Shown: positions 23,735-24,205 of the stretch, one piece after another
Numbering within the stretch: position 1 is the stretch's first letter
Layout: each line of letters starts with the position of its first letter
Source: Eledone cirrhosa
Lineage: Eukaryota
Reading direction: 5' to 3'
Length of the DNA stretch: 64,000 nucleotides
Assembly (NCBI GenBank): GCA_964016885.1
Contig: OZ024740.1
Span: 425,010,001 to 425,074,000 of the forward strand
The notes under the pieces: model-generated
Seen by the model: only the letters and a program-made list of their open reading frames with translations
Databases searched by the model: none
What the model was told of the DNA's origin: nothing
Program-made: the position numbers and the translations under genes

Positions 23735-24198
23735 CATTTTTTTCAAATTCCAACCCGCCCGTCCCCTCAATCTATCTTATTTCTCTTTTTTTCTTCTGAT
23801 GAAGGAATAGCGTCCGAAACGTTAAGACCCTATTCCTGCTATATCAAGCATTATTCCTTTCATATACTGTACCGATTGTGATGTTATTTCTGTTTACCTT
23901 TTACACACACACACACACACATACACACGCGCGCGCACACATTCATTTATTATGACTAAATGGTGTGTCTTGTTACTCGGGAATATTGCACGCTTGCTCA
24001 CCGAGCCATAAGACGAACTTTTCTTCGGTACATTTTTTCAAATTCCAACTCTCCCGTCCTCTTAATCTATCTTATTTCTCATTCTTTCTTCTGATGAAGG
24101 ACTAGCGTCCGAAACGTCAAGACTCTCCTCCTGCTATTTTAAGCGTTAACCTAATATATTCTTGCATATACTGTACCAATTGTGTTGTTATTTCTGTT

Positions 24199-24205
<7 letters not shown>
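23735..24205 (+). mobile_element. Tandem retrozyme-like element with two minimal HHRs 295 nt apart
   Basis: UCUU CUGAUGA A GGA-AUAGCG-UCC GAAAC GUU AAGA (23792-23827) and UCUU CUGAUGA A GGAC-UAGC-GUCC GAAAC GUC AAGA (24087-24122). Confidence 0.9.

What the first reader, a model, noticed from the sequence alone, without database searches (positions are those of the whole stretch)
23735..24205. Tandem double hammerhead predicting a 295-nt monomer or circular RNA
Seen: two minimal HHRs 295 nt apart, with cleavage predicted after 23823 and 24118. Helix III has no loop (AACGUU / ACGU palindrome), so it cannot fold as a monomer. Further copies are at 49604 and 47139. Known: minimal HHRs with palindromic helix III cleave as dimers in tandem transcripts. 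Inferred: this is the clearest retrozyme unit in the window.
Basis: partly seen in the sequence, partly recalled or inferred. Interest (0 to 1): 0.75.

Follow-up and report, generated by a model that had tools for sequence, protein, structure and literature searches.

The report
Leftover Penelope ends, two hammerheads
Two hammerhead-shaped RNA motifs sit 295 bases apart, but they are broken-off tail ends of a very common jumping gene with a scrap of another repeat between them, a one-off arrangement that is likely not a self-spreading RNA circle.

Summary
In detail: two minimal type I hammerheads with intact cores, predicted cuts after 23823 and 24118 (295 nt apart), and a loopless ACGU helix III. 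The retrozyme reading does not. Both motifs are 3' ends (pLTRs) of a Neptune-type Penelope-like element with 3,506 exact cores genome-wide. Full pLTR-ORF-pLTR copies carry the same hammerheads 3.6-3.8 kb apart. The 295-nt interval is a mosaic: pLTR tail, CA tract, a decayed 90-nt piece of another repeat family, then a truncated second pLTR. That join was found once in the genome. Only 3 pairs among 6,851 core 13-mers lie 280-310 nt apart, each with a different spacer. The copy at 49604 is a local duplicate of copy 1 that keeps the other repeat's tail where copy 2 now sits; 47139 lacks the core. Copies 1 and 2 share two rare variants, so they are likely of common local origin and later rearranged. 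Published PLE minimal hammerheads cut weakly or need the element's protein. Expression is untested. The scan met similar Penelope/hammerhead cases on other DNA before. Ordinary.

The parts
23692..23903 (+). Copy 1: 5'-truncated 3' end (pLTR) of a Neptune-type Penelope-like element; carries a 10-nt deletion and a C-to-A change in stem II
   Evidence: BLAST to the near-full-length natural copy L061, positions 3220-3453, 88%; alignments
23792..23827 (+). Minimal type I hammerhead 1: core intact, stem II cut to 3 bp, predicted cut after U23823 (GUU, the family's usual triplet)
   Evidence: ACGUU in 41 of 52 natural copies
23904..23939 (+). (CA)n/(CG)n tract, the usual microsatellite tail of this element
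23940..24029 (.). Decayed 90-nt piece of an unrelated fold-back repeat family; its tail is missing here but present in the duplicate at 49933 onward
24030..24203 (+). Copy 2: second, more truncated pLTR of the same Penelope-like element
   Evidence: L061 positions 3260-3456, 90%; 138 of 155 sites identical to copy 1
24087..24122 (+). Minimal type I hammerhead 2: core intact, 4-bp stem II, predicted cut after C24118 (GUC)
24204..24269 (+). (TA)n tail after copy 2
49601..49960 (+). Local duplicate of copy 1 + CA tract + spacer, running on into the other family's tail; single hammerhead (C3 49653, predicted cut after 49680)
   Evidence: 150 of 157 sites identical to copy 1; spacer 86 of 90
47139..47258 (+). 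Older fragment of the same family without the CUGAUGA core; not a hammerhead
   Evidence: L061 positions 3330-3449, 80%

Best explanation
The two hammerheads are the truncated 3' ends (pLTRs) of a common Neptune-type Penelope-like retrotransposon, separated by a CA tract and a decayed piece of another repeat, in a 295-nt arrangement found once in the genome that is likely an inert leftover rather than a spreading RNA circle. Shown: the family, its pLTR-ORF-pLTR form, the foreign spacer, the single join, and the duplicate at 49.6 kb that keeps the older state of the spacer. Inferred: the two ends began as a local pair (a partial-tandem insertion or a local duplication); the other repeat landed in the CA tail between them; copy 1 plus that repeat was duplicated 26 kb away; a deletion then removed that repeat's tail and the front of copy 2 and set the spacing at 295. 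In the intact element the two pLTR hammerheads would pair through their ACGU palindromes and cut weakly or with help from the element's protein. Here a read-through transcript could form the same dimer, but cutting at both sites is predicted to be rare.
For: Family size: 3,506 exact cores; 6,851 core 13-mers. Of the 29 best other loci, none has a second same-strand hammerhead within about 1.5 kb and one has an inverted pair. 2 of 8 fetched long copies show pLTR-ORF-pLTR with hammerheads 3,629 and 3,829 nt apart (L126, L130). Their frames show DKG, RT, CX2-5CxxC and GIY-YIG motifs; Pfam gives weak RVT_1 (E 0.0013, 0.0066) and GIY-YIG (E 0.031) hits in 3 of 6 fragments, below the curated cut-offs. 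The spacer-copy 2 join matches in full only here; 49831-49932 matches up to the join; the other 30 of 32 matches are partial hits to another family, and none of the 28 fetched loci holds this hammerhead. The 49.6-kb duplicate continues into that family's tail exactly where copy 2 starts. Pairs at 280-310 nt: 3 in the genome, each with a different spacer; at 237-267 nt: 2. Copy 2 shares 2 rare states with copy 1/49604, while 0 of 49 other copies share 2 and 10 of 49 share 1; one of the states occurs in 34 of 6,966 copies. The 295-nt piece folded as a circle is 45% paired, z = -1.4. Literature: PLE minimal hammerheads cut weakly even as dimers (PMC4209133); one showed no cutting without the PLE protein and was not needed for insertion in vitro (PMC11167929).
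Against: Both cores are intact and all 18 of 18 dimer pairs are canonical, so the pair could work. Of the 6 other close pairs scored, none had two intact cores (L134, seen later, has two). Size (295) and GC (40%) fit animal retrozymes. Close pairs are about 12 times more frequent than a uniform scatter gives (3 against 0.24), so pairing is a family trait and not pure chance. The order of events rests on two shared single-base states and on one duplicate; the 49 comparison copies were partly picked by likeness to copy 2. The clade call rests on motifs, not on a tree.
Confidence: 0.85

Rival explanations
1. Same verdict, other history: copy 2 is an independent insertion of the element into the old repeat next to copy 1, and the two shared rare bases are coincidence or later gene conversion. 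(Confidence is for this origin step only.)
For: Copies 1 and 2 are 89% alike, no closer than each is to dispersed copies (medians 91.6% and 92.1%). L134 shows a typical copy right behind an older, diverged relative, 253 nt apart. Copy 2 lacks copy 1's 10-nt deletion and stem II change.
Against: 0 of 49 other copies share two rare states with copy 1/49604; one state is at 0.5% genome-wide and its carriers do not form a subfamily.
Confidence: 0.3
2. The one-off locus is nonetheless transcribed, cuts at both sites as a double hammerhead, and yields a 295-nt linear or circular RNA that carries foreign sequence: a retrozyme at birth.
For: Intact cores and full dimer pairing. Animal retrozymes are argued to derive from PLE pLTRs (bioRxiv 10.64898/2026.07.22.740005, abstract and parts 1-2).
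Against: No offspring of the unit in the genome. The 49604 copy matches copy 1, not copy 2, upstream of the cut, so it is not a permuted circle copy. Copy 1's stem II has lost a pair and its predicted pairing probability is 0.0, with a rival hairpin, although 21 of 52 other copies are also under 0.05. Minimal PLE hammerheads cut weakly.
Confidence: 0.07
3. It is a member of a propagating non-LTR retrozyme family with a 295-nt monomer.
For: Spacing 295 nt and GC 40% fall in the published range.
Against: Unit found once; no TRF repeat at this period; hammerheads are the minimal PLE type, not canonical; the flanks belong to a coding PLE.
Confidence: 0.03

Closest known systems
Minimal type I hammerheads in pLTRs of metazoan Penelope-like elements (Cervera and De la Pena 2014, PMC4209133; parts 1-2 of 4 read)
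   Same: Short helix I (4 bp), one extra base between positions 9 and 10.1, G10.1-C11.1, palindromic 15.2-16.2 with no loop 3, thousands of mostly single copies from truncated PLEs, a few flanking an ORF about 3-4 kb apart, some close inverted pairs.
   Different: Helix II is 3-4 bp here against 7-8 bp in the schistosome families; this pair is a same-strand close pair with a foreign spacer.
Neptune-clade EN+ Penelope-like elements (PMC8557442; 12 of 26 passages seen)
   Same: RT followed by a CX2-5CxxC linker and C-terminal GIY-YIG, 5' truncation, partial tandems that form pLTRs, inverted 5' copies, microsatellite targets.
   Different: No intact ORF among the 9 long copies read; Neptune versus Nematis not settled by a tree.
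Animal non-LTR retrozymes (PMC7229834, 12 of 15 passages seen; bioRxiv 10.64898/2026.07.22.740005, parts 1-2 of 5 read)
   Same: Two type I hammerheads about 300 nt apart on one strand, GC under 45%, PLE ancestry.
   Different: The unit is not repeated or multi-copy, includes another family's fragment, has minimal rather than canonical hammerheads, and is weakly self-paired; no RNA evidence.

Membership tests
Minimal type I hammerhead (PLE type) | CUGANGA and GAAA cores, NUH site, extra base after position 9, G10.1-C11.1 | tested here: met
Minimal type I hammerhead (PLE type) | Loopless palindromic helix III that pairs only between two copies | tested here: met
   ACGU in both copies; 18 of 18 dimer pairs canonical
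Minimal type I hammerhead (PLE type) | Self-cleavage | not testable with these tools
   needs an in vitro assay
EN+ Penelope-like element pLTR | Same sequence flanks an RT + GIY-YIG frame as direct repeats | tested here: met
   L126 and L130, 2 of 8 long copies fetched; weak Pfam RVT_1 and GIY-YIG hits
EN+ Penelope-like element pLTR | Variable 5' truncation, fixed 3' end on a microsatellite, partial tandems and inverted copies | tested here: met
Neptune clade | CX2-5CxxC linker before a C-terminal GIY-YIG | tested here: met
   frames of L131 and L133
Neptune clade | RT phylogeny with reference Neptune and Nematis elements | not tested
   no reference set fetched
Non-LTR retrozyme | Tandem repeat of one monomer with a hammerhead in at least two consecutive whole units (TRF-detectable) | tested here: not met
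   no such TRF row; the spacer occurs once between the two pLTRs
Non-LTR retrozyme | Monomer is a multi-copy family | tested here: not met
   1 of 32 matches spans the join, the window itself; 3 pairs at 280-310 nt with unrelated spacers
Non-LTR retrozyme | Canonical type I hammerhead (as in the 2020 definition) | tested here: not met
   helix I 4 bp, no loop 3; the 2026 preprint also admits minimal ones
Non-LTR retrozyme | Monomer 150-450 nt, GC under 45% | tested here: met
   295 nt, 40% GC
Non-LTR retrozyme | Highly self-paired circular RNA | tested here: inconclusive
   45% paired, z = -1.4 against 150 shuffles; no retrozyme control folded
Non-LTR retrozyme | Expressed as linear and circular RNA | not testable with these tools
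   needs RNA reads from this organism; see Tried and rejected

The most novel reading that the evidence does not exclude
Decay of a Penelope partial tandem has, by accident, built a working double hammerhead around a foreign repeat fragment, so that a read-through transcript is cut into a 295-nt RNA that circularises: a retrozyme caught at birth, before it has spread.
Probability: 0.07. Interest if true: 0.5.

Novelty: new member of a known kind. Interest (0 to 1): 0.12.

Why it matters
As found, little: it is one of thousands of Penelope ends of a kind described in 2014. It is a useful caution that two hammerheads about 300 nt apart do not make a retrozyme; the spacer must be checked. If the locus did yield a 295-nt circle, it would show one concrete route from a Penelope pLTR pair to a retrozyme, which the 2026 preprint infers from trees only (as far as the parts read show). 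The pair is also a ready natural substrate for asking whether minimal PLE hammerheads need the element's protein.

Tried and rejected
Rfam at gathering score: 0 hits in the window. Idea that 49604 is a circularly permuted retro-copy of the 295-nt circle: rejected, its part upstream of the cut carries copy 1's variants. Idea that the spacer is a normal tail of a subfamily: rejected. Idea that the rare G marks a subfamily: rejected, its 28 other fetched carriers are mixed. Folding cost of the dimer, +20.9 kcal/mol, is uninformative: 6 other natural pairs give 14.8-27.7 and there was no active control. Low stem II probability in copy 1 is weak evidence, since the median of 52 copies is 0.07. Core conservation (0.965-0.977) against flanks (0.941-0.967) in 49 copies is inconclusive because copies were picked by the core (5 duplicated loci were dropped first). 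Sequencing runs: no RNA holder listed. Of 4 runs laid (4 of 24 listed), three guessed-RNA runs gave nothing and one run of unknown kind covered both pLTRs but not the spacer; none of this bears on expression. Pfam gave 0 hits for the 3 L061 fragments and PDB no useful hit. The protein atlas look-up gave no result. Pair spacings other than 237-267 and 280-310 nt were not counted genome-wide; the 553-583 band is untested. Look-up of earlier findings by sequence: nothing. Paper searches; none of the 4 papers listed for octopus + Penelope + hammerhead is, by title, about this family; this is not a claim that it is absent from repeat databases. No supplements were read; those of PMC4209133 may list related motifs.

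Full report
Observation. The window is microsatellite-rich animal DNA from a 3.0-Gb assembly; earlier AI notes call it octopus-like, which I did not test. Copy 1 has its core at 23796-23802, one extra A, a 3-bp stem II, GAAA, the palindrome ACGU and U17 at 23823. Copy 2 has the same parts 295 nt further on, a 4-bp stem II and C17 at 24118. Helix I is 4 bp. Helix III cannot close in one copy, and all 18 of 18 pairs of the double-hammerhead fold are canonical. The copy at 49604 is a complete minimal hammerhead. The one at 47139 lacks the core. TRF shows no repeat of period near 295 and Rfam no hit.

The family. The exact 27-nt core occurs 3,506 times in the genome, the reversed control 0 times. 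Copies end at a fixed 3' point on a (CA)n/(TA)n tract and are cut at variable 5' points. Of the 29 best other loci, none has a second same-strand hammerhead nearby and one has an inverted pair. Following long copies upstream leads into a decayed reverse transcriptase and GIY-YIG frame. Of 8 long copies fetched, L126 and L130 show the full pLTR-ORF-pLTR plan, with hammerheads 3,629 and 3,829 nt apart. The frames show DKG, RT, CX2-5CxxC and GIY-YIG motifs. Pfam support is weak: 3 of 6 fragments hit, all below cut-off, and 0 of 3 earlier fragments did. This anatomy matches Neptune-type PLEs (PMC8557442, passages) and the minimal hammerheads of PLE pLTRs (PMC4209133, parts 1-2 of 4).

The 295-nt interval. 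It consists of copy 1's tail, a CA tract, 90 nt (23940-24029) and the front of copy 2. A genome search with the spacer and join gave 32 matches: the window itself in full, 49831-49932 up to the join, and 30 partial hits to a different, fold-back repeat family. None of the 28 loci fetched for that family holds this hammerhead. The tool warns that its counts are lower bounds. The stretch 49601-49932 duplicates copy 1, the CA tract and the spacer: 150 of 157 and 86 of 90 sites identical, with the same 10-nt deletion and stem II change. It then runs on into the other family's tail exactly where copy 2 begins, so it keeps the older state. It is not a permuted copy of the predicted circle, because upstream of the cut it carries copy 1's variants. 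Genome-wide, 3 pairs of the core 13-mer lie 280-310 nt apart and 2 lie 237-267 nt apart, among 6,851 such 13-mers. Uniform scatter predicts 0.24 per band. The other pairs have unrelated spacers. Close pairs are therefore a rare family trait, not one spreading unit.

How the pair arose. Copies 1 and 2 are 89% alike, no more than dispersed copies; that alone does not separate a tandem insertion from two insertions. Copy 2 shares two rare states with the copy 1/49604 lineage, while 0 of 49 other copies share two and 10 of 49 share one (5 duplicated loci dropped). One state is found in 34 of 6,966 copies and its carriers form no subfamily. I infer a local pair, later split by the other repeat, partly duplicated to 49.6 kb, and shortened by a deletion at 24029/24030. 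An independent insertion of copy 2 remains possible (about 0.3).

Mechanism. In the intact element the two pLTR hammerheads would pair through ACGU and cut the precursor RNA. Published minimal PLE hammerheads showed low activity even as dimers and trimers. One Poseidon hammerhead did not cut without the element's protein, was dispensable for insertion in vitro, and no RNA-seq read ends were found at its cut site (PMC11167929, passages). In line with that, only 2 of 30 family pieces picked by a 3' motif start near the cut site, while 11 of 30 start 110-140 nt upstream of it, so most templates were uncut (inference from a small sample). At this locus, release of a 295-nt RNA needs a read-through transcript and cuts at both sites. 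The cut at 24118 would use copy 1's core, whose stem II has lost a pair and faces a rival hairpin. The cut at 23823 is a GUU site, which I recall as slower than GUC (no call). Folding energies do not settle this. The circle would be 45% paired, z = -1.4. In favour of activity, both cores are intact, unlike the 6 other close pairs scored.

Comparison and verdict. It works like, and is, a pair of PLE pLTR minimal hammerheads. It fails the retrozyme tests of a repeated monomer and a multi-copy unit (PMC7229834, passages; bioRxiv 10.64898/2026.07.22.740005, parts 1-2 of 5), and passes only on size and GC. Earlier notes of this scan reached similar readings on other DNA, and one describes a six-unit 311-bp array elsewhere in this genome that would be a better retrozyme candidate (not checked by me). 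New member of a known kind; interest 0.12. The boldest reading not excluded is a retrozyme at birth (probability 0.07).

Noticed in passing
family-wide; positions 3210-3240 of the element in L061 (window copy 1 starts at 3220 = window 23692): 5' ends of the short copies pile up 110-140 nt upstream of the hammerhead cut: 11 of 30 pieces picked by a 3' motif, against 2 of 30 near the cut. Could mark a transcription start in the pLTR, a strong RT stop, or joining by microhomology to (AT)n.
   Followed up: partly
L007, L014, L064, L065, L070, L073, L074, L077, L081, L083, L084, L086, L090: Short forms join the element's first 200-360 nt to its last 200-240 nt with many different breakpoints. L083 and L084 share one breakpoint on different contigs. 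L064/L073 have a pLTR hammerhead upstream, giving pairs 570-578 nt apart. These are better candidates for a non-autonomous short form of this family.
   Followed up: partly
L033-L060 (family of the spacer 23940-24029): This second family carries its own CUGAUGA...GAAA hammerhead-like core, often as fold-back inverted copies; the window's spacer is a decayed antisense arm plus tail. Fold and cut site not tested.
   Followed up: no
window 24522-27483: A different Penelope-like element: 464-aa stop-free frame at 24726-26120 with RT and GIY-YIG-like motifs, flanked by 257-nt inverted repeats at 98.8% identity, so probably young.
   Followed up: no
window 8700(-), 36079(-), 36222(+), 41247(-), 46627(+), 46995(-), 53898(+): Other CUGANGA...GAAA hammerhead-like motifs from further repeat families, including an inverted pair at 36079/36222.
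   Followed up: no
window 5592-6383: 263-aa frame with a GIY-YIG domain (Pfam E 8.5e-07), probably the end of another Penelope-like element.
   Followed up: no
L095, L135: Near-identical tandem duplicates with shared broken cores (283 and 253 nt apart), showing that local duplication makes such pairs without any need for activity.
   Followed up: partly
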